DNA from: Staphylococcus sp. CAG:324
GTDB lineage: Bacteria; Bacillota_I; Bacilli_A; ML615J-28; CAG-313
Assembly: GCA_000433035.1 (NCBI GenBank)
Contig: FR890808.1
Span: 525-64,524 of the forward strand
DNA: 64,000 nt
Reading direction: 5' to 3'
Of this stretch, positions 5,381 to 29,658 are shown piece by piece. Positions within the stretch are counted from its first letter, which is position 1; the number at the start of each line of letters is the position of its first letter. Made by a program: the position numbers and the translations under genes. The notes below the pieces were generated by a model. It made no database searches. It was not told the origin of the DNA and saw only the letters and a list, made by a program, of their open reading frames with translations.

Positions 5381-6046
5381 TCAATCAGGATAGTAAATAA
5401 TCACTATATCGGATGCTTTATATTCGTTTGTTGCCTCCGTTTTTATTTCAAATTTATACCTTTTGCCATCTTTATAGACAATATCAGTTTTAAAATATTG
5501 CTTGTTGGTATTGGTATCTACTTGTTTCTTGACATCAACTTCTTTTATTTTTTCATCATCTTCATATATAATTACATAATATCCATTTGTTGCCAGTTCA
5601 TTGTGATCCCATGTTAAATAAAAACAATTATTCTGATTTGGCATAACCGCAATATTTACATTTGTTGGTGCTGATAGGGGAACCTTTTTATTAAGATAAA
5701 AATTAGCAACAAAATAACCCACAAGTATCAATAAGAAAATCGTTACCGCAATAATTTCTTTAACCTTATACTTATTTGCAACCGCCTTTGATAAGTGCTG
5801 AACATGACTTTCAATATATATTGACATATTAGGGATTGCTAAATGAACATCTATATGTTTTTCATCAAAATTGCTTAATTCTTCTAATACCTTTTTTATT
5901 TTCACTTCTGTATCAAGACTTTTAATTGCATAACCTCTTGCTTTTTTAATATACGTATAAGCAATACTTTGATAGGAATTGCTTAAATATTTTATTGTTT
6001 CATTATTTTCTTTTATTAGTTCTTTATATCGTTCTTTAGAATTCAT
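5381..6046 (-). CDS. Hypothetical single-pass membrane protein
   Basis: ORF trimmed to MNSKERYKEL (ATG at 6046, RBS GGTGA). One central TM segment (IIAVTIFLLILVGYFVANFYL) and a beta-rich C-terminal domain. Confidence 0.6.
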   Translation of the reverse strand: MNSKERYKELIKENNETIKYLSNSYQSIAYTYIKKARGYAIKSLDTEVKIKKVLEELSNFDEKHIDVHLAIPNMSIYIESHVQHLSKAVANKYKVKEIIAVTIFLLILVGYFVANFYLNKKVPLSAPTNVNIAVMPNQNNCFYLTWDHNELATNGYYVIIYEDDEKIKEVDVKKQVDTNTNKQYFKTDIVYKDGKRYKFEIKTEATNEYKASDIVIIYYPD

Positions 6047-6120
6047 ATTATTTTCACCAACATATTTTTTTAATATTATAACACAAAAGAAATGATTTAT
6101 CAAAACATATATTTTTATTT

Positions 6121-9869: not shown

Positions 9870-10706
9870 TTAGGCTAAATAAATCATTTGATATATTGCA
9901 CAGGCATGGGTAAATTTTTGTAAATTTAACCCAGTTTCTTTAAAGATACTATCTAATTTATTGATAAGACTATTGCGATTCATATAAAGTAGTTTCGATG
10001 TTTGGGAGACATTTAAATCATTTTTAAACATTACACTGATGATTTCTCTTGTAGTAGCATCTTGGAATAAGGGGATAAGTAAATTATTTTTAAGTGCTTT
10101 TTTTAAATTTACATATTCACTCCTACCTAAACTTAAAATGATATCTGCTAAATCAGTATATGCCTTTTTATAAATACTCTCATTATCGTGATATGCTTTG
10201 ATATATTCTAAAATTTCTTCACCCCTATACCTATGATTGAAAATTAAACCCTCATGTAAAATAATATCATATCCCAAATCAACACTTAAAGTTTCAAATA
10301 AATCCTTAATTTTAGTTTGATTTTCTTCAAAAAAGCAAATATTTAAATGATAAAGCTCTAAAAAATAACAATTTTGATAAATATCAAATAACAGCTTTTG
10401 TGCAATATCCATATCTTCTTTATTGAGATGAAATACAATCATTCTAATTTTTTTAACTTTAAATGGATATTCTTTATTTTCTAAAAGGTATTCATAAATC
10501 TTTTGTAAATCATAATCATAAGTATACATTTTTTTCTCATTATAAAGTTCTTTTAATAAATAATATTCGTTTTGAGAAATTGTTTTAGAAATTGCAAAGA
10601 TGTCACAATTTGTTTTATCTTTATAAAAATAATAATAGTCATCCGTTATTTGTGTAACCTCTTCTTGCAATTTATCTTGATAAATATCTTTTAATCTTGA
10701 AAGCAT
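9870..10706 (-). CDS. PucR/CdaR-like transcriptional regulator (C-terminal HTH)
   Basis: C-terminal LNVSQTSKLLYMNRNSLINKLDSIFKETGLNL resembles the PucR HTH_30 domain. The start is ambiguous (ATG at 10706 or 10718; the ORF track extends to 10793). Confidence 0.55.
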   Translation of the reverse strand: MLSRLKDIYQDKLQEEVTQITDDYYYFYKDKTNCDIFAISKTISQNEYYLLKELYNEKKMYTYDYDLQKIYEYLLENKEYPFKVKKIRMIVFHLNKEDMDIAQKLLFDIYQNCYFLELYHLNICFFEENQTKIKDLFETLSVDLGYDIILHEGLIFNHRYRGEEILEYIKAYHDNESIYKKAYTDLADIILSLGRSEYVNLKKALKNNLLIPLFQDATTREIISVMFKNDLNVSQTSKLLYMNRNSLINKLDSIFKETGLNLQKFTHACAIYQMIYLA

Positions 10707-24251: not shown

Positions 24252-25565
24252 ATGAAACTTGGGATGATTTCACTTGGTTGTGCTAAAAACTTAATTGACT
24301 CTGAACTTTTTCTTGGTGTGGCACAAAAATATAATTTAGAAATTACCAATAATATTAAAGAAGCAAACATTATTGTTGTGAATACTTGTGGCTTTATTGA
24401 AAGTGCCAAAAAGGAAGCTATTGATACTCTTTTAGATGTTACTGAAAATAAAAAAGGTAAAATCATTATTGCTATGGGCTGTTTAGTTGAACGATATCTA
24501 TCTGATTTACGACAAAGTATCCCCGAAGTAGACATCTATTTTCCAATTCGAGATTATGATCATATTGATAAACTTTTCCAAAAAATTCTTCTTACTGGTA
24601 AATCCTATCAAATGGATTATCAAAATAGAGTACTTTCTACCCTTCCCCATAGTGCTTATTTAAGAATTTCGGAAGGATGTAATAATCACTGTAGTTATTG
24701 TGCAATTCCACTAATTAGAGGATCTTTTAGGAGTAGAGATTTTAATAGTCTAATTGAGGAGGCTAAATATTTAGCAAGTCGCGGTGTAAAAGAAATTACA
24801 CTTATTGGTCAAGATACCACTCGATATGGTACCGATCAAAAAGATAATCTTTTTTTGCATGATTTAATTCATCAAATCTCTTTAATTGATGAAATCAAAA
24901 TAATTAGAGTTTTATATCTTTACCCAGATGAAATTACTAGTGAACTCATTGATGAAATTAAAAATAACGATAAAGTTGCCAAATATTTTGATATTCCCAT
25001 TCAACATGCATCCAATCGAATTTTAAATAAAATGAACCGAAGAGGTGGAAAGTTTTTTTTAGAAAATCTTTTTGAAACCATTAGAAAAAGAATAAATGAT
25101 GCAATTATTAGAACGACTCTGATTGTTGGATTTCCTTCAGAAACGGAAGAAGACTTTAATATTTTATTCGATTTTGTCAAAAAGCAACGTTTTAACCGTC
25201 TAGGAGTTTTTACCTATTCTGATGAAGAAGATACCAAAAGTGCGCAAATGCAACCTAAAGTTCCTCAAGATGTGATGGAAAGACGCAAAGACCAAATTAT
25301 GAGTTTTCAAAATAGACTTTCTAAAATTTTAAACCGAACTTTTATTGGTAAGATCTATATTGCAATTGTAGACTTTTATGATAAAGAAAACTCCCGTTAT
25401 TGTGTGAGAAACTACGCTTATGCCCCAGATGATGTGGACGGATATATCTATATTTATTCTGAAAAACTAGACTATATCCATGCGGGTGACATAATAGAAA
25501 TTGAAATAACAAAAGCGGATAGTTATGATCTATATGCTCGATTAAAAAATAAAGTAACCAATTAA
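24252..25565 (+). CDS. rimO: Ribosomal protein S12 methylthiotransferase
   Basis: SLGCAKNLIDSE N-terminal domain, radical-SAM CNNHCSYCAIP, C-terminal TRAM-like domain. Confidence 0.9.
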   Translation: MKLGMISLGCAKNLIDSELFLGVAQKYNLEITNNIKEANIIVVNTCGFIESAKKEAIDTLLDVTENKKGKIIIAMGCLVERYLSDLRQSIPEVDIYFPIRDYDHIDKLFQKILLTGKSYQMDYQNRVLSTLPHSAYLRISEGCNNHCSYCAIPLIRGSFRSRDFNSLIEEAKYLASRGVKEITLIGQDTTRYGTDQKDNLFLHDLIHQISLIDEIKIIRVLYLYPDEITSELIDEIKNNDKVAKYFDIPIQHASNRILNKMNRRGGKFFLENLFETIRKRINDAIIRTTLIVGFPSETEEDFNILFDFVKKQRFNRLGVFTYSDEEDTKSAQMQPKVPQDVMERRKDQIMSFQNRLSKILNRTFIGKIYIAIVDFYDKENSRYCVRNYAYAPDDVDGYIYIYSEKLDYIHAGDIIEIEITKADSYDLYARLKNKVTN

Positions 25566-27481
25566 GTTACTTTATTTTTCATTTGTTCCCTTATTCCTTT
25601 TAAAATTTCAACCATTGCCCATGTATCTTGTCTACAATATATGCGAAGTGCTACATATTTTTCTTGATATTCTTTTGTAGTCAAGAAAGGAAGCATCCCA
25701 TATGTAAGGATTGCTTCAGTACCATTTTTCACATCTAAATTTGTATATGTTAAATTGGTAAAAAGAGGCAATACTTTTTTGATTGAAAAAGAACCATGCA
25801 TTAAATTATTGTAATATGTAAAACTTGGCTTATCCCTACTTGTATTTGGAAATAACTCTTTCGATCCTCTTAATACCTCTAACAAATCAAAAATATGATC
25901 ATTTATTTTATCTAATTGATCTTTTTTATCTTTAAAAATGAAACTTAATTCTTTTAATCTAGTTTTCTCAAAAGACTTATTATAAACAATAACGGTGCCA
26001 CCATTTGTTAAATCAATATGCGCAATCAGACTCTCAATTAACTCTAATCTATGATCTTGATGATCTTTGGCTAAATATTCAAAATGATCTTGAATACAAT
26101 CACAATGACCTAATGCTTTTTCCACATGTAGGGAATATTGAAATAAGGATTGTGTATATGGATGTTCCCCTTTAAAACGAGGAAGAGGACAATTATAACT
26201 TTCGAAATCCAAATAATATACTGGATATTTAATTTTTTTAATTGCTTCTTTCATTCTTGCTTTATCAATATATATCTCATTATTTATATAACAATCATAT
26301 TGAATAAGATTTTCTTTTTTGTTTAAATAGGTTTTAACATCATCTATTTTATAAAATCCTTGATTAATTAATTCAAAAACATCATAATATTTTTTCTTAT
26401 TATCCTTAGTGGGCTTACTAAAAGCATATTGTTTTTTTAAATATTCTAAAATTGAACCATCTTGTAATACTTCTTTCATACATACTTTACAAAATTTACA
26501 CATCGTGGTTTTTTTATATTCACAATGCTTGCCTAAACATTTAGGACCAATTGTTAAGTATTTTTCTCTTTTTAAAATTTGTTGTTTTTCTTCTTCAATT
26601 TGTGTTAAATATAATTTCGATAAATCATTCATGTCGTAAATTTTAAATAAAGCCTCGCCATTTTCATCTAAATCATATAATGGCTTGTTATCACAATCAT
26701 ATTTACCATTAAAAGTATAATTGGCATTGAGAACGACTAAATAATATTCTATCTTTTTATCTAAAAAAGAATTTTTTTGTTTCAAACTATTTTCAATAAT
26801 ATGTCGTTGAACGGAAATATCATATATATATTTTCCCACATCGGAATATCGATCGAGTAGTATTTTTTGCTTTTTATCCAATCGCATCTTTTCTTTTTCA
26901 TCAAAAACATGACTCATATCTTGATATCTAATAATATTGTCTTTATCTTTTACAAAAAAGTAGTAGGGTTTTTTGTTGATCATAACACAAAAATCATCAT
27001 ACTTTTTAGATGTAGTTGCTTTAACCTCAAAAATTTTAATCGTTTTTTCATCTTCAAAATAAGCATCTAGATAACAATAAAAAAGGTTTCCTTCTTCTTT
27101 ATATGAATATTTTTTTTGTTTATATGTATTGACAGAAGCAACTACTTGATGTTGAAACACCTTTTCAATATAACAAGTAGCTAGTCTTTCAACTTCTGTA
27201 AAGGTTTTTGCAAAAGCCTCCATTTGAGCATTGGTAATATTTAATAAATCATCCCCCGTTTTTTCGTCAAACATTTCTTGAAATATTTCTTCAATTTTTT
27301 CGTTTTTAACATCAAATAAATTGTCCTTTAATGTGAATATAGTCTTTTCTATATCTTGTTCTATTTTATTTCCCTCAATTTCTTTTATGTTGTGTAATCC
27401 CCTATTTATATATAAATCATATAGAGAAATAAAATTATGACATCGTGATAAATTTTTGAATATCGTTTTAGAAATATGCAT
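25562..27481 (-). CDS. DUF2779 family protein: predicted PD-(D/E)XK nuclease with Cys cluster fused to a DEDDy-like exonuclease domain
   Basis: Motifs CYLDAYFED...IFEVKATT, CLGKHCEYKKTTMCKFCKVC, YYLDFES...FQYSLH, VYNKSFEKTRL and YCRQDTWAM. The ATG at 27479-27481 overlaps the upstream TGA, with AGGAGA 5 nt upstream. Confidence 0.8.
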   Translation of the reverse strand: MHISKTIFKNLSRCHNFISLYDLYINRGLHNIKEIEGNKIEQDIEKTIFTLKDNLFDVKNEKIEEIFQEMFDEKTGDDLLNITNAQMEAFAKTFTEVERLATCYIEKVFQHQVVASVNTYKQKKYSYKEEGNLFYCYLDAYFEDEKTIKIFEVKATTSKKYDDFCVMINKKPYYFFVKDKDNIIRYQDMSHVFDEKEKMRLDKKQKILLDRYSDVGKYIYDISVQRHIIENSLKQKNSFLDKKIEYYLVVLNANYTFNGKYDCDNKPLYDLDENGEALFKIYDMNDLSKLYLTQIEEEKQQILKREKYLTIGPKCLGKHCEYKKTTMCKFCKVCMKEVLQDGSILEYLKKQYAFSKPTKDNKKKYYDVFELINQGFYKIDDVKTYLNKKENLIQYDCYINNEIYIDKARMKEAIKKIKYPVYYLDFESYNCPLPRFKGEHPYTQSLFQYSLHVEKALGHCDCIQDHFEYLAKDHQDHRLELIESLIAHIDLTNGGTVIVYNKSFEKTRLKELSFIFKDKKDQLDKINDHIFDLLEVLRGSKELFPNTSRDKPSFTYYNNLMHGSFSIKKVLPLFTNLTYTNLDVKNGTEAILTYGMLPFLTTKEYQEKYVALRIYCRQDTWAMVEILKGIREQMKNKVT

Positions 27482-28611
27482 CAATATCTCCTAAATAAAT
27501 TAGAATATCCTGGATAAACTAAAACATTTTTATAAAGACGATTTAAATTATATTCGCCAAGAAAACCTTCTTCGTTATTGATATGCATTGAAAAATCTTT
27601 ATAGGTAATCCAAATTAAGTCATAAGATAATTCTTTTATTTCTTCTTTTGTTAAAAATAATTCAGTAAATAAAATAGTTAATTTAAAGCCATGATAGGTA
27701 AGTACAATTTCTTTACCTAATTTATTTGTAAATACTTCTAAAGATTCCTCTTTTAATCCCATTTGTCTTAGATTTTTGAATATCGTTGTATAGTCACAAG
27801 AAACATTTAAAAATTCAGGTATTTTTTTATATATTTCCCTACTCATATTTCCATCAAAACATTGCCAATCTGCCCTAACCTCTAGATGATCAAAACAAGC
27901 AATATCATCTATCATAGATATATATAAATTACTTTTAGAATGATGACATATCACTTCTTTGATATTGGTTGTAACATACAAAATATTGATATTAGTATCA
28001 ATTTTAAGCATCTCCTTATAATACGTTTTTATCAATTGAGCCGCAATTTCTTCTGCTGGTTTTAAATTTAATGACATTTTTTTAAAAGGAGCTATTATTT
28101 GTGGTTCAACAACTAGTAATTTATCATTTTTATTTTGATCTAATTTATTCGCAATCCTTTTGATAAATTCGTGAGTAAGTTCGGTAAATTCAACCATTTG
28201 AAATAGTTTTAAACTAATAATATCGTTAAACCCTTTTTCTTTATATCTATTAAGACAACTATCATAACATTCAGGACTACATAAAAGAATATTATAATCA
28301 CTTTGCTTTAAATCAATTATATGATTCAATTTTTCTTTTAAATGATCACTTCTTACCTTTAAGAAGTCATGTAAGTAACTATATACTTTTTTAGAATTCG
28401 TTAGTATATGCATTTCATCTAAAACCATAGTCTCTTTTGCATTAACCAATTGTGATTGTTCTTCTATTTCAACATAACACAACTCTTCTTTATCATACTC
28501 ATCTAATTTTTCATCAAGTGATGGTAAAAAAATTTGATACTGTCTAATATATTCAAAAATGCTCATTTCTTCAATAAATTCATATTCTTTATGATTTATA
28601 TAAACGGCCAT
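27481..28611 (-). CDS. [FeFe]-hydrogenase-like protein lacking cluster-binding cysteines (function unknown)
   Basis: RBS AGAGGTGA. The N-terminus follows the Fer2_4 pattern of HydA/NuoG. The centre (KEKGFNDII, EFTELTHEFIKRI, LIKTYYKEMLKIDTNINILYV) follows the H-domain pattern, with TSCCPGW, MPCT and MACHGGC replaced. Confidence 0.7.
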   Translation of the reverse strand: MAVYINHKEYEFIEEMSIFEYIRQYQIFLPSLDEKLDEYDKEELCYVEIEEQSQLVNAKETMVLDEMHILTNSKKVYSYLHDFLKVRSDHLKEKLNHIIDLKQSDYNILLCSPECYDSCLNRYKEKGFNDIISLKLFQMVEFTELTHEFIKRIANKLDQNKNDKLLVVEPQIIAPFKKMSLNLKPAEEIAAQLIKTYYKEMLKIDTNINILYVTTNIKEVICHHSKSNLYISMIDDIACFDHLEVRADWQCFDGNMSREIYKKIPEFLNVSCDYTTIFKNLRQMGLKEESLEVFTNKLGKEIVLTYHGFKLTILFTELFLTKEEIKELSYDLIWITYKDFSMHINNEEGFLGEYNLNRLYKNVLVYPGYSNLFRRY

Positions 28612-28711: not shown

Positions 28712-28846
28712 ATGGAAATTAAATTGACAAAAACAACTAAAAAAATTACTAGAGAAAAATGTGGTGATTGTTATTACAATGGAGACTGTAGCATCAATTT
28801 AAAAACATGTCCATATTTGAAAAAACCTAAAGTAATGGAAGAATAA
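28712..28846 (+). CDS. Small Cys-rich protein (44 aa), not in the ORF track
   Basis: AGAGGTGGA RBS 6 nt before the ATG. Sequence MEIKLTKTTKKITREKCGDCYYNGDCSINLKTCPYLKKPKVMEE. Its own terminator hairpin lies at 28857-28890. Confidence 0.45.
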   Translation: MEIKLTKTTKKITREKCGDCYYNGDCSINLKTCPYLKKPKVMEE

Positions 28847-28976: not shown

Positions 28977-29052
28977 TGGTGGCTTGGGCCGGGATCGAAC
29001 CGGCGACACATGGATTTTCAGTCCATTGCTCTACCGACTGAGCTACCTAGCC
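28977..29052 (-). tRNA. tRNA-Phe (GAA), CCA encoded
   Basis: Reverse complement GGCTAGGTAGCTCAGTCGGTAGAGCAATGGACTGAAAATCCATGTGTCGCCGGTTCGATCCCGGCCCAAGCCACCA. Cloverleaf folded by hand. One A:A mismatch at acceptor pair 5:68. Confidence 0.92.
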
Positions 29053-29059
29053 AAAATAA

Positions 29060-29135
29060 TGGCGGTTCCAACGGGACTTGAACCCGCGATCTCCAGTGTG
29101 ACAGACTGGCATGTTAACCACTACACCATGGAACC
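29060..29135 (-). tRNA. tRNA-Asp (GTC), CCA encoded
   Basis: Reverse complement GGTTCCATGGTGTAGTGGTTAACATGCCAGTCTGTCACACTGGAGATCGCGGGTTCAAGTCCCGTTGGAACCGCCA. Anticodon loop CUGUCAC. Confidence 0.93.
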
Positions 29136-29137
29136 AT

Positions 29138-29220
29138 TGGTGCGGGCGACAGGAATCGAACCTGCACTCGTGAGAACTAGAGCCTAAATCTAGCGCGTCT
29201 GCCAGTTCCGCCACGCCCGC
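29138..29220 (-). tRNA. tRNA-Leu (TAG), long variable arm, CCA encoded
   Basis: Reverse complement GCGGGCGTGGCGGAACTGGCAGACGCGCTAGATTTAGGCTCTAGTTCTCACGAGTGCAGGTTCGATTCCTGTCGCCCGCACCA. Perfect acceptor stem. Confidence 0.93.
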
Positions 29221-29284: not shown

Positions 29285-29319
29285 TAAAAATGAATAAGGG
29301 AATTTCCCCCTTATTCATT
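29285..29319 (-). terminator. Intrinsic terminator overlapping the stop of the 62-aa ORF
   Basis: AATGAATAAGGG / CCCTTATTCATT stem followed by TTTTTAT on the minus strand. Confidence 0.65.
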
Positions 29320-29499
29320 ACTACAACTTGTTGTGTCACATACACATAATTCACAATGACACTCATCTGCCAATTTTTGGCCTGCTTTAACACAAGCATC
29401 TTTTGTTTTATAATGCTTTTCTAAAACAACACCAAATTCATTTTCAATTTCCCAATTGTTTTTTTCTTTACATGGTCTACAAGTTATTTTTTTGTCCAT
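29311..29499 (-). CDS. Small Cys-rich protein (62 aa), DUF2188-like core
   Basis: ORF trimmed to MDKKITCRPC (ATG at 29499, RBS GAGGTGA). NNWEIENEFGVVLEKHYKTKDACVKAGQKLADE resembles DUF2188. C-terminal CHCELCVCDTTSC. Confidence 0.5.
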   Translation of the reverse strand: MDKKITCRPCKEKNNWEIENEFGVVLEKHYKTKDACVKAGQKLADECHCELCVCDTTSCSNE

Positions 29500-29658
29500 T
29501 ACTATCACCTCATCTTTCACAATCTTATTATGTGTTAATGTTGTTATTTTAATAGTGGTATTTTTCACTAATTTTTTTAATGATTTATAACATATTAATA
29601 TTATTATAAACTTATTTTGAATAATTATACAATTTCCATTTTTTATCTTAAAAATTAT

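What the first reader, a model, noticed from the sequence alone, without database searches (positions are those of the whole stretch)
25562..28611. Two-gene module: pseudo-hydrogenase translationally coupled to the DUF2779 nuclease (candidate undescribed system)
**Coupling.** The stop of the hydrogenase-like gene (TGA, 27481-27483) overlaps the ATG of the DUF2779 gene (27479-27481). An AGGAGA RBS sits inside the upstream coding sequence. This implies co-transcription and probably a stoichiometric complex.

**Genomic context.**
- The pair sits between convergent rimO and a tRNA operon.
- Neither neighbour suggests a function.
- Two short Cys-rich ORFs lie nearby.

**Why it stands out.** I do not recognise the pairing of a cluster-less hydrogenase fold with a predicted Fe-S dual nuclease from any described repair, defence or metabolic system.

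**Possible roles (speculative).** A sensor or adaptor subunit regulating a nuclease, for example in defence or DNA-end processing.
Basis: inference. Interest (0 to 1): 0.72.

Follow-up and report, generated by a model that had tools for sequence, protein, structure and literature searches.

The report
Dead hydrogenase relic beside nuclease gene
A gene that was once a hydrogen-producing enzyme has lost its catalytic metal sites but is still kept, joined end-to-end to a DNA-cutting enzyme gene, in one clade of gut Mollicutes-like bacteria. The pairing arose by deletion of the genes in between, so it is an interesting case of an enzyme's afterlife rather than a proven new system.

Summary
Gene A (27481-28611, minus strand, 376 aa) ends in a TGA that shares one base with the ATG of gene B (25562-27481, minus strand, 639 aa, DUF2779). 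An AGGAGA sits 5 nt upstream of that ATG.

- **Gene A** is derived from an [FeFe]-hydrogenase (HydA). This is supported by profile comparison, by fold search and by full-length collinearity. All three H-cluster motifs and the accessory Fe-S domains are gone.
- **Gene B** is the predicted dual nuclease already in the literature: Cas4-like with four invariant Cys, plus a DEDD exonuclease domain.
- **Conservation.** A and B are 0-5 nt apart or overlap by one base in all 22 informative loci. These form a single clade that includes 19 GTDB species. A is under purifying selection (dN/dS 0.06-0.2).
- **Origin.** Related genomes show the ancestral order: tRNA cluster | small 4-Cys ORF | hydC…hydB-hydA | crp-SBP-permease | DUF2779 | rimO. 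The window's lineage deleted everything between hydA and DUF2779, so the adjacency is historical.
- **Outside the clade**, DUF2779 has unrelated upstream neighbours. Neither protein matches PADLOC, PHROGs or viral contigs.

An accessory role for A with the nuclease is the single most likely function (about 0.35-0.4) but is untested. A dedicated or defence "system" is not supported.

The parts
27481..28611 (-). Gene A: HydA-derived pseudo-hydrogenase, 376 aa. It has a Cys-less N-terminal 2Fe-2S-ferredoxin-like domain (residues ~2-85) and an H-domain remnant (~100-376). The F-cluster domains and all H-cluster motifs are absent.
   Evidence: Sequence and fold:
- A profile of the family matches the CpI hydrogenase N-terminus at E 2.5e-8.
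- hhalign against a HydA alignment gives probability 98.5%, E 1.5e-15.
- Foldseek top hits are all [FeFe]-hydrogenases, best E 4e-11.
- A MAFFT alignment is collinear with HydA to the C-terminus, and motifs L1, L2 and L3 are lost.

Selection and distribution:
- dN/dS is 0.05-0.30 along the whole ORF.
- Only about 11 full-length 50%-identity clusters exist among 1.84 billion representative proteins.
27487..27492 (-). Shine-Dalgarno-like AGGAGA for gene B. It lies inside the last codons of A, 5 nt upstream of the ATG.
   Evidence: Read directly from the sequence. An equivalent GGAG-type motif is present at the junction in most related loci.
25562..27481 (-). Gene B: DUF2779 dual nuclease, 639 aa. 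The N-terminal half is Cas4/RecB-like PD-(D/E)XK, with D139, E152-x-K154 and invariant Cys 14, 320, 328 and 334. The C-terminal domain (~420-625) is DEDD(y)-type, with D425-x-E427 and Y615-x3-D619.
   Evidence: - Pfam PF11074, E 4.9e-37.
- Invariant columns in a 57-sequence alignment; Cys positions in the window protein.
- AlphaFold2 model with pLDDT 90.7.
- Weak Foldseek hits to RecE, Exo5, Cas4 SSO0001, MGME1 and RecB, and to ExoI, RNase T and WRN exonuclease.
- The two-nuclease architecture is described for this family in PMC13621843 and PMC3985635.
28612..28711 (.). 100-bp divergent intergenic region between gene A and the small Cys ORF. It is the presumed site of the promoter for the A-B transcript.
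   Evidence: This is inference from gene layout. The promoter scan is uninformative in this AT-rich DNA (37 sites found against 30 expected). No Rfam element was found.
28712..28846 (+). Small basic 4-Cys ORF 'S' (44 aa, core EKCGDC[FY]YNGxCx6C), transcribed divergently from A. It marks the ancestral upstream edge of the hydrogenase operon.
   Evidence: - Present upstream of A in every A-containing locus and absent from all A-lacking DUF2779 loci.
- About 90 database clusters, all 35-67 aa.
- Also found divergently upstream of genuine hydC…hydB-hydA operons.
- Found alone beside rimO where A and B are both missing.
- No Pfam or NCBIfam match.
28977..29220 (-). tRNA-Phe/Asp/Leu cluster, one flank of the conserved backbone.
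   Evidence: ARAGORN and Rfam. The same tRNA cluster, ending in Asp-Phe, flanks S or the crp-SBP-permease-DUF2779 block in relatives.
24252..25565 (+). rimO, convergent with B. Its stop codon overlaps B's stop codon by 2 nt. It forms the other flank of the backbone (rimO-PTAC-small ORF-mnmG).
   Evidence: ORF list and sequence. The synteny is conserved in all close loci, including those that lack A.

Best explanation
**Origin (shown).** Gene A is the surviving, cofactor-less remnant of hydA, the catalytic subunit of an ancestral electron-bifurcating HydABC hydrogenase operon. In the ancestor the locus read: tRNA cluster | small Cys ORF S (divergent) | hydC…hydB-hydA | crp-SBP-permease | DUF2779 | rimO (convergent) | PTAC | small ORF | mnmG. 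In the lineage of this window, deletions removed hydC…hydB and crp-SBP-permease. hydA also lost its H-cluster ligands and, in the window type, its F-cluster domains and 2Fe-2S cysteines.

**Expression (inferred from layout).** What is left is a bicistronic unit. It is presumably transcribed from the S/A divergent intergenic region. Ribosomes terminating A at the TGATG junction would re-initiate on B with the help of the AGGAGA inside A, so B output would be tied to A translation.

**Protein-level constraint (shown).** A is not a decaying pseudogene. It is under purifying selection along its whole length and is retained in every sampled descendant.

**Function (inferred, about 0.35-0.4).** The most likely role is a non-catalytic accessory or scaffold partner of the DUF2779 nuclease. 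That nuclease is a housekeeping-type enzyme for processing nucleic-acid ends.

A purpose-built two-gene system, or a defence function, is not what the evidence shows.
For: **A derives from hydrogenase**
- The family profile matches CpI residues 4-88 at E 2.5e-8.
- hhalign gives 98.5% probability.
- Foldseek returns only [FeFe]-hydrogenases at the top.
- The intermediate homologue in L031 passes the Pfam Fe_hyd_lg_C threshold (29 bits against 22.1).
- The HydA HMM hits only the A ORFs and the true HydA genes (L036, L055) among all ORFs of at least 50 aa in the loci held at that point (L001-L084) and the window.

**Loss of cofactor sites**
- TSCxP has become VVEPQ, MPCxxK has become VTTNIK, and the CxxGCxxGGG segment is deleted.

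**Ancestral order**
- L090-L094 carry tRNAs | S | hydC…hydB-hydA | crp | SBP | permease.
- L036 and L055 carry hydB-hydA-crp-SBP-permease-DUF2779, collinear with L092 by tblastx.
- L019, L025 and L030 carry tRNA-Phe…crp-SBP-permease-DUF2779 with no hyd genes and no S.
- The downstream block rimO-PTAC-mnmG is conserved throughout.

**Single origin and full retention**
- All S+A+B loci form one clade in a neighbour-joining tree of B.

**Selection**
- dN/dS is 0.12 for window against L005 (dS 0.56), 0.056 for L012 against L013, and 0.05-0.30 in every quarter of the ORF.

**Coupling**
- The A-B gap is -1 to +5 nt in 22 of 22 loci. Most other upstream neighbours of DUF2779 are 44-150 nt away.

**Hints of a link to B**
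- The region upstream of B is fixed in the A+ clade: one neighbour type in 22 loci. The sister clade has four types in nine loci.
- hydA is absent from the sequence held upstream of B (about 5 kb) in L019, L025 and L030, where it would not have abutted B.
- A and B are both absent from L089.
Against: - No interaction evidence of any kind.
- B occurs without A in most lineages sampled here, including the sister clade. Its family is quasi-essential in minimal Mycoplasma mycoides (PMC13621843); whether that homologue has an A-like partner was not checked.
- In L031 an A-like gene persists although two ABC-transporter genes separate it from B.
- A evolves 1.5-2 times faster than B at long range and has shed different domains in different sublineages.
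- Close spacing to the upstream gene is also seen where that gene is an ABC transporter: 6 of 9 loci are within 14 nt.
- The whole block, including functionally unrelated rimO, PTAC and mnmG, is equally syntenic. Conserved adjacency alone therefore says little.
- The tree is neighbour-joining on one protein, without support values.
Confidence: 0.45

Rival explanations
1. A and B form a dedicated two-subunit system: a stoichiometric complex in which the pseudo-hydrogenase senses or adapts and the Fe-S dual nuclease executes, for defence or DNA-end processing.
For: - Tight, conserved translational coupling.
- A is retained in all 22 loci of the clade under purifying selection.
- A and B are both absent from L089.
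- Some A variants (L017, L018, L023, L087) keep two intact CxxCxxCxxxC motifs, so they could still carry clusters next to an Fe-S nuclease.
Against: - No PADLOC, PHROGs or viral-contig hit.
- The pair lies in a core syntenic block with ordinary composition, not a variable island.
- It has a single evolutionary origin by deletion.
- DUF2779 elsewhere has unrelated neighbours.
- The window-type A has no conserved metal or ligand site left that could sense anything.
Confidence: 0.2
2. A has a non-catalytic function unrelated to B, for example a structural or moonlighting role inherited from HydA. Sharing an operon with B would then be only the by-product of genome reduction in a compact genome.
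For: - Purifying selection shows that the protein matters.
- L031 keeps an A-like gene that is not adjacent to B.
- Adjacency is explained by deletions.
- B is often closely spaced with unrelated ABC-transporter genes.
Against: - hydA or A is absent from the sequence held upstream of B in the loci where it would not have abutted B (L019, L025, L030).
- No A-family gene was found away from a DUF2779 gene in any context examined.
Confidence: 0.25
3. A encodes no useful protein. The ORF is kept open only because its transcription and translation drive expression of B (promoter, RBS and coupling), or it is a pseudogene caught in decay.
For: - The RBS and start of B are embedded in A.
- A has lost domains repeatedly.
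- In one metagenomic contig (L088) A is split into 202-aa and 81-aa ORFs.
Against: - dN/dS is 0.05-0.30 in every quarter of the ORF, not only at the 3' end, and is as low as 0.056 between L012 and L013.
- The AlphaFold2 model is reasonably confident (pLDDT 74.5 from only 12 sequences).
- 56 columns are invariant across sequences 35-85% identical to the window protein.
Confidence: 0.07

Closest known systems
[FeFe]-hydrogenase catalytic subunit HydA of HydABC-type (group A) enzymes, e.g. Clostridium pasteurianum CpI and Thermotoga maritima HydA
   Same: - N-terminal beta-grasp 2Fe-2S-ferredoxin-like domain, H-domain fold and the C-terminal small-subunit-like segment, all collinear with HydA.
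- A occupies the genomic position of hydA in the syntenic backbone.
   Different: - All three H-cluster motifs are lost or deleted.
- The His-ligated 4Fe-4S domain and the two-[4Fe-4S] domain are deleted in the window type.
- The N-terminal 2Fe-2S cysteines are replaced.
- hydB and hydC are gone.

A therefore cannot be a hydrogenase.
Eukaryotic hydrogenase-like proteins Nar1 / NARFL (CIAO3, IOP1)
   Same: Both are HydA-derived proteins without hydrogenase activity that were recruited to another job. Nar1 serves Fe-S proteins of genome maintenance (abstracts of PMC12621388 and PMC13451876). Here the neighbour is a predicted Fe-S nuclease.
   Different: Nar1 keeps two [4Fe-4S] sites, and its proposed function depends on them. 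The window's A has no conserved cluster ligands. It is bacterial, clade-restricted and of independent origin. Any analogy of function is speculation.
DUF2779 / PF11074 family (RNase H-like family F.17; MMSYN1_0389 of JCVI-syn3.0; UU173 family)
   Same: B has the family's architecture: a Cas4-like PD-(D/E)XK domain followed by a DEDD(h/y) exonuclease domain. Its Pfam match is strong.
   Different: - B keeps all four Cas4-type cysteines, whereas MMSYN1_0389 has only two.
- B scores far below the NCBIfam UU173 cut-off (51.7 bits against 225).
- No hydrogenase-derived upstream partner has been described for this family.
Cas4 (CRISPR adaptation nuclease) and solo-Cas4
   Same: The N-terminal half of B resembles a PD-(D/E)XK nuclease with a 4-Cys 'iron staple'. 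Foldseek lists SSO0001 and Exo5 among its weak hits.
   Different: - No cas1, cas2 or CRISPR array among the genes flanking the pair: rimO and the PTAC-mnmG block on one side, S and the tRNAs on the other. The ORFs beyond the tRNAs were not classified.
- B carries an extra DEDD domain.
- The gene lies in a core-genome position.

Membership tests
[FeFe]-hydrogenase (HydA) | H-domain (Fe_hyd_lg_C) fold and sequence homology | tested here: met
   - hhalign 98.5%, E 1.5e-15.
- Foldseek E 4e-11 to TmHydA and CpI, and E 2e-5 to DdH over 289 columns.
- The window protein itself is below Pfam detection, but its homologue in L031 passes the threshold.
[FeFe]-hydrogenase (HydA) | H-cluster ligand motifs L1 TSC(C/S)P, L2 MPCxxKxxE and L3 ExMxCxxGCxxGGGQP | tested here: not met
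   The aligned positions read VVEPQ and VTTNIKE, and the L3 segment is deleted in every A-type sequence.
[FeFe]-hydrogenase (HydA) | Accessory Fe-S domains with their cysteines (2Fe-2S, His-ligated 4Fe-4S, 2x[4Fe-4S]) | tested here: not met
   In the window type the N-terminal domain is present but lacks its Cys ligands, and the other domains are deleted. Only the L017/L018/L023/L087 variants keep the two CxxCxxCxxxC motifs.
[FeFe]-hydrogenase (HydA) | Maturases HydE, HydF and HydG, and partner subunits HydB and HydC, in the genome | not testable with these tools
   Only 64 kb of the genome is available. The HydA profile matched only gene A in the window. hydB, hydC and hydE/F/G were not searched for. 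hydB and hydC are absent from the syntenic position where relatives have them.
Nar1/NARFL hydrogenase-like proteins | Two conserved 4-Cys [4Fe-4S] sites (N-terminal and H-domain) | tested here: not met
   The window protein has 8 Cys. Only C111 and C119 are invariant among its 11 closest homologues, and they are not conserved in the other A types.
DUF2779 (PF11074) | Match to the Pfam domain above the gathering score | tested here: met
   127.4 bits against a cut-off of 23.3, residues 422-566.
DUF2779 (PF11074) | Cas4-like PD-(D/E)XK catalytic residues plus DEDD acidic residues, as described for the family | tested here: inconclusive
   D139, E152-x-K154, D425-x-E427 and Y615-x3-D619 are invariant and the fold hits are consistent. 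Equivalence to the residues named in PMC13621843 was inferred, not aligned to solved structures. A PDB profile search found nothing.
NCBIfam UU173 family (NF045869) | Score above the curated cut-off | tested here: not met
   51.7 bits against a cut-off of 225. B is a distant relative, not a member of that subfamily.
Known anti-phage defence systems (PADLOC-DB 2.0) | Either protein matches a defence-system model | tested here: not met
   No family at E up to 1 for either protein. There are also no PHROGs matches of note and no viral contigs.
   The pair is conserved only within one clade of RF39/Anaeroplasma-like Bacilli, and always inside the same syntenic block. In the other roughly 55 species loci DUF2779 has other neighbours.

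The most novel reading that the evidence does not exclude
After hydrogen metabolism was lost, the hydA remnant was exapted as a non-catalytic subunit of the Cas4-DEDD dual nuclease, controlling its stability, its substrate choice or the maturation of its Fe-S cluster. This would be a bacterial, independently evolved parallel to eukaryotic Nar1, in which a hydrogenase fold is re-used in the service of Fe-S enzymes of genome maintenance.
Probability: 0.3. Interest if true: 0.65.

Novelty: new variant of a known kind. Interest (0 to 1): 0.42.

Why it matters
**If A has a real function.** It would be, as far as I could find, the first bacterial case of an [FeFe]-hydrogenase catalytic subunit surviving as a cofactor-less pseudoenzyme. 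It comes with a readable series of intermediates in related genomes:
- the full HydABC operon;
- an H-cluster-less form that keeps two [4Fe-4S] motifs;
- a form with only the Cys-less ferredoxin-like domain;
- the bare H-domain remnant.

This gives pseudoenzyme and hydrogenase researchers a natural experiment on which parts of the fold are kept when catalysis is gone.

**A handle on DUF2779.** This nuclease family is widespread, quasi-essential in the minimal Mycoplasma and uncharacterised. A co-expressed partner in a cultivable relative (Anaeroplasma bactoclasticum) could help pull out its substrate.

**A caution for annotation.** One source (JGI) already labels this protein 'NADH dehydrogenase/NADH:ubiquinone…'. 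Such labels could lead to H2 metabolism being inferred wrongly for these gut lineages.

**If A is only a co-expressed relic**, the finding is a tidy example of reductive genome evolution and nothing more.

Tried and rejected
- **Fused A-linker-B AlphaFold2 run** on a 14-row paired alignment, to look for an interface. The second structure job went to B alone.
- **Defence or mobile-element reading.** PADLOC, PHROGs and two viral-contig scans were all negative, and composition is unremarkable.
- **Are the other unknown ORFs upstream of DUF2779 very diverged A proteins?** hhalign probability for clusters 0, 3, 6, 8 and 10 was 0.5% or less against both the A-family and HydA profiles. Rejected.
- **Conserved Cys triplet C111/C115/C119 as a new metal site.** It is not conserved outside the window-type subfamily. 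Rejected.
- **Promoter and terminator scan.** No better than shuffled sequence in this AT-rich DNA.
- **Rfam scan of the region.** Only the tRNAs were found.
- **PDB sequence searches for B.** Both the single-sequence and the profile search were empty.
- **First PDB sequence hit for A (pentatricopeptide repeats).** This was a low-complexity artefact with no significant domain.
- **Mirror-tree or co-evolution statistics on A against B.** Considered but not run. About 22 phylogenetically nested pairs in a fully syntenic block cannot separate co-evolution from shared history.

Full report
**1. The observation**

Both genes lie on the minus strand.
- Gene A runs from the ATG at 28611 to the TGA at 27481-27483 (376 aa).
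- Gene B starts at the ATG at 27479-27481 and stops at 25562-25564 (639 aa).
- The junction reads AGGAGA-tattg-ATG. The A of the TGA is also the A of the ATG.
- rimO is convergent, and its stop codon overlaps B's stop codon by 2 nt.
- A tRNA-Phe/Asp/Leu cluster lies beyond a small Cys-rich ORF on the other side.

The description is accurate in every particular.

**2. What gene A is**

- *Database searches.* Pfam finds nothing in A. NCBIfam gives only weak N-terminal matches to hydrogenase models. A has only 12 relatives in the 5.8-billion-protein index, and about 11 full-length clusters among 1.84 billion representatives.
- *Homology to hydrogenase.* A profile of these relatives matches residues 4-88 of Clostridium pasteurianum hydrogenase I at E 2.5e-8. 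Profile-profile comparison with a HydA alignment gives 98.5% probability, E 1.5e-15.
- *Fold.* An AlphaFold2 model (pLDDT 74.5) retrieves only [FeFe]-hydrogenases at the top of the PDB search, best E 4e-11. These include the Desulfovibrio enzyme, which lacks the N-terminal domain, so the H-domain itself is matched.
- *Collinearity.* An alignment of all A variants with true HydA proteins is collinear to the C-terminal small-subunit-like segment.
- *Lost cofactor sites.* The H-cluster motifs are gone: TSCxP reads VVEPQ, MPCxxK reads VTTNIK, and the CxxGCxxGGG segment is deleted. The two central Fe-S domains are deleted, and the N-terminal ferredoxin-like domain has lost its cysteines.

'Pseudo-hydrogenase' is therefore a fair name.

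**3. What gene B is**

- B matches PF11074 (DUF2779) at E 4.9e-37.
- The literature places this domain among DEDD-type 3'-5' exonucleases fused to a PD-(D/E)XK module (PMC3985635).
- It describes the Mycoplasma mycoides homologue MMSYN1_0389 as a quasi-essential Cas4-like plus DEDDh/y double nuclease (PMC13621843).
- In 57 homologues, D139, E152-x-K154, D425-x-E427, Y615-x3-D619 and Cys 14, 320, 328 and 334 are invariant.
- A confident model (pLDDT 90.7) gives weak but coherent fold hits to RecE, Exo5, SSO0001 Cas4, MGME1 and RecB, and to ExoI, RNase T and WRN exonuclease.

The 'Fe-S dual nuclease' label is reasonable, but it remains a prediction.

**4. Is the pairing conserved?**

A scan of one genome per GTDB species with a DUF2779 alignment returned 80 loci.
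- The A profile, iterated to convergence, hits 27 ORFs. Apart from the window's own A, two true HydA genes and one non-adjacent A-like gene, every hit is the ORF immediately upstream of DUF2779.
- These adjacent A genes fall into subtypes:
  - the window type (about 375 aa);
  - a related form in L016 and L021;
  - a form that keeps two intact CxxCxxCxxxC ferredoxin motifs (L017, L018, L023);
  - a short form that is only the H-domain remnant (L011-L014, L020, L024).
- Homology of the short type rests on the iterated profile and on collinearity. Direct hhalign support is modest (probability 33%).
- In all 22 informative loci the A stop and B start overlap by 1 nt or are 0-5 nt apart.
- A is under purifying selection: dN/dS is 0.12 against the 85%-identical L005 at dS 0.56, and 0.056-0.2 in other unsaturated pairs. 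It is 0.05-0.30 in every quarter of the ORF.
- At long range A diverges 1.5-2 times faster than B.

**5. Where the pairing comes from**

Three further observations change the picture.
- *Shared synteny.* The downstream block rimO-PTAC-small ORF-mnmG is just as conserved, including in close relatives that lack A.
- *Single clade.* In a neighbour-joining tree of B, all A-containing loci form one clade. The sister clade has four different upstream neighbours in nine loci, and more distant clades have still others: ABC transporters, a permease, a lipase and unknown proteins that are not A-like.
- *The small ORF S.* The small Cys-rich ORF at 28712-28846 is conserved divergently upstream of A in every A-containing locus and absent from all others. 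When its family was searched, some members lay divergently upstream of complete hydC…hydB-hydA operons, themselves followed by crp, an NMT1-type binding protein and a permease (L090-L094).

The same crp-SBP-permease trio, preceded by hydB-hydA, sits directly upstream of DUF2779 in L036 and L055. The arrangements are collinear by tblastx. The same tRNA cluster, ending in Asp-Phe, bounds the region in all of them.

The ancestral order was therefore: tRNAs | S | hydC…hydB-hydA | crp-SBP-permease | DUF2779 | rimO…
- The window's clade lost hydC…hydB and crp-SBP-permease.
- L019, L025 and L030 lost S and the whole hyd operon.
- L089 lost A and B but kept S.
- L031 keeps an H-cluster-less A-like gene separated from B by two ABC-transporter genes.

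A is the orthologous remnant of hydA, and its adjacency to B is a product of deletion.

**6. How it most likely works**

*Shown:*
- A is a hydrogenase-derived protein with no catalytic or, in this lineage, cluster-binding residues.
- It is kept by selection.
- It forms a tight same-strand pair with B.

*Inferred:*
- There is one transcript from the S/A intergenic region, with termination-reinitiation at TGATG.
- B expression is therefore tied to A translation.

*Function of A: unknown.* I rate an accessory, non-catalytic role with the nuclease as the single most likely option (about 0.35-0.4).
- For this role:
  - The junction has been frozen in every descendant, while the position upstream of B is otherwise fluid.
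  - hydA is not seen in the loci where it would not have abutted B.
  - A and B are missing together in L089.
- Against this role:
  - B manages without A in most lineages sampled.
  - L031 shows that A can persist away from B.
  - B is also closely spaced with unrelated transporter genes.
  - There is no interaction evidence.

*Other options.* An independent function for A (about 0.25) and a purely expression-related role (about 0.07, disfavoured by dN/dS) remain open. A defence system is unlikely, given no PADLOC, PHROGs or viral matches and a core-genome setting.

**7. Comparison with what is known**

- A works like no hydrogenase. It fails the defining H-cluster test while meeting the fold test.
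- The nearest conceptual relative is eukaryotic Nar1/NARFL, a hydrogenase-like protein re-used in Fe-S protein biogenesis. Nar1 keeps its clusters, and A does not.
- B is an ordinary member of the DUF2779 family, with the full Cas4-type cysteine set.
- I found no paper describing a cluster-less bacterial HydA remnant or a hydrogenase-derived neighbour of DUF2779. A study of RF39/RFN20 genomes reports only hydrogenases with intact motifs (PMC7301438).

**8. Verdict**

- The 'undescribed two-gene system' interpretation is only partly supported. The module is real and clade-conserved, but it is explained historically.
- The interesting residue is a selected, cofactor-less hydrogenase fossil with a visible series of intermediates. 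It is also a possible handle on an uncharacterised nuclease family.
- Novelty: a new variant of a known kind (hydrogenase-like non-enzymes). Interest: moderate (0.42).

Noticed in passing
window 28712-28846 (+); also L090-L094 at ~6001-6108 or 10001-10108, and L089 6001-6183: A 35-67 aa basic mini-protein with four invariant Cys (K-C-x2-C-x-Y-x3-C-x6-C) and no Pfam or NCBIfam family. It has about 90 database clusters. It sits divergently upstream of genuine HydABC operons, upstream of the hydA remnant, and alone beside rimO where A and B are deleted. It may be a small metal-binding or nucleic-acid-binding regulator that was originally tied to the hydrogenase operon.
   Followed up: partly
L017 ~1520-2491, L018 ~1737-2714, L023 ~1391-2356, L087 4938-5885: In these species the hydA remnant upstream of DUF2779 has lost the H-cluster motifs but keeps two complete CxxCxxCxxxC ferredoxin motifs (weak Pfam Fer4 hits). 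It is probably still a 2x[4Fe-4S] protein. This is an intermediate stage, or an alternative solution, relative to the window's Cys-less form.
   Followed up: partly
L088 4930-5885: In one metagenomic contig the A gene is called as two ORFs (202 aa and 81 aa), where the near-identical contig L087 has one of 315 aa. This is either a frameshift or pseudogenisation in a strain, or an assembly error.
   Followed up: no
window 25562-25565: The stop codons of the convergent genes rimO (TAA, 25563-25565) and DUF2779 (TAA on the minus strand, 25562-25564) overlap by 2 nt, and no terminator-like hairpin lies between them. The two transcripts must overlap at their 3' ends.
   Followed up: no
L090-L094, e.g. 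L092 6627-9392: The intact HydABC operons of the relatives carry, between hydC and hydB, a run of small ORFs. Two have HATPase_c (histidine-kinase-like ATPase) domains, one has a weak PHP hit, and several have no annotation.
   Followed up: no
window 29311-29568 (-): A second Cys-rich ORF (85 aa, ending CHCELCVCDTTSCSNE) lies just beyond the tRNA cluster. It has only a sub-threshold DUF2188 match (E 0.011). No homologue was found in the related loci by tblastn.
   Followed up: partly
L010 (JAMPDF010000008.1), L042, L076 and L082: Contigs that carry this Mollicutes-type DUF2779 gene (with the A gene and rimO-mnmG synteny in L010) are deposited under Prevotella sp., Muribaculaceae or Bacteroidales MAG names. 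This is probably mis-binning in the source assemblies.
   Followed up: no
cluster P0001: One source (JGI) names the window's gene A 'NADH dehydrogenase/NADH:ubiquinon…', presumably from the N-terminal ferredoxin-like similarity. The annotation is misleading for a cluster-less protein.
   Followed up: no
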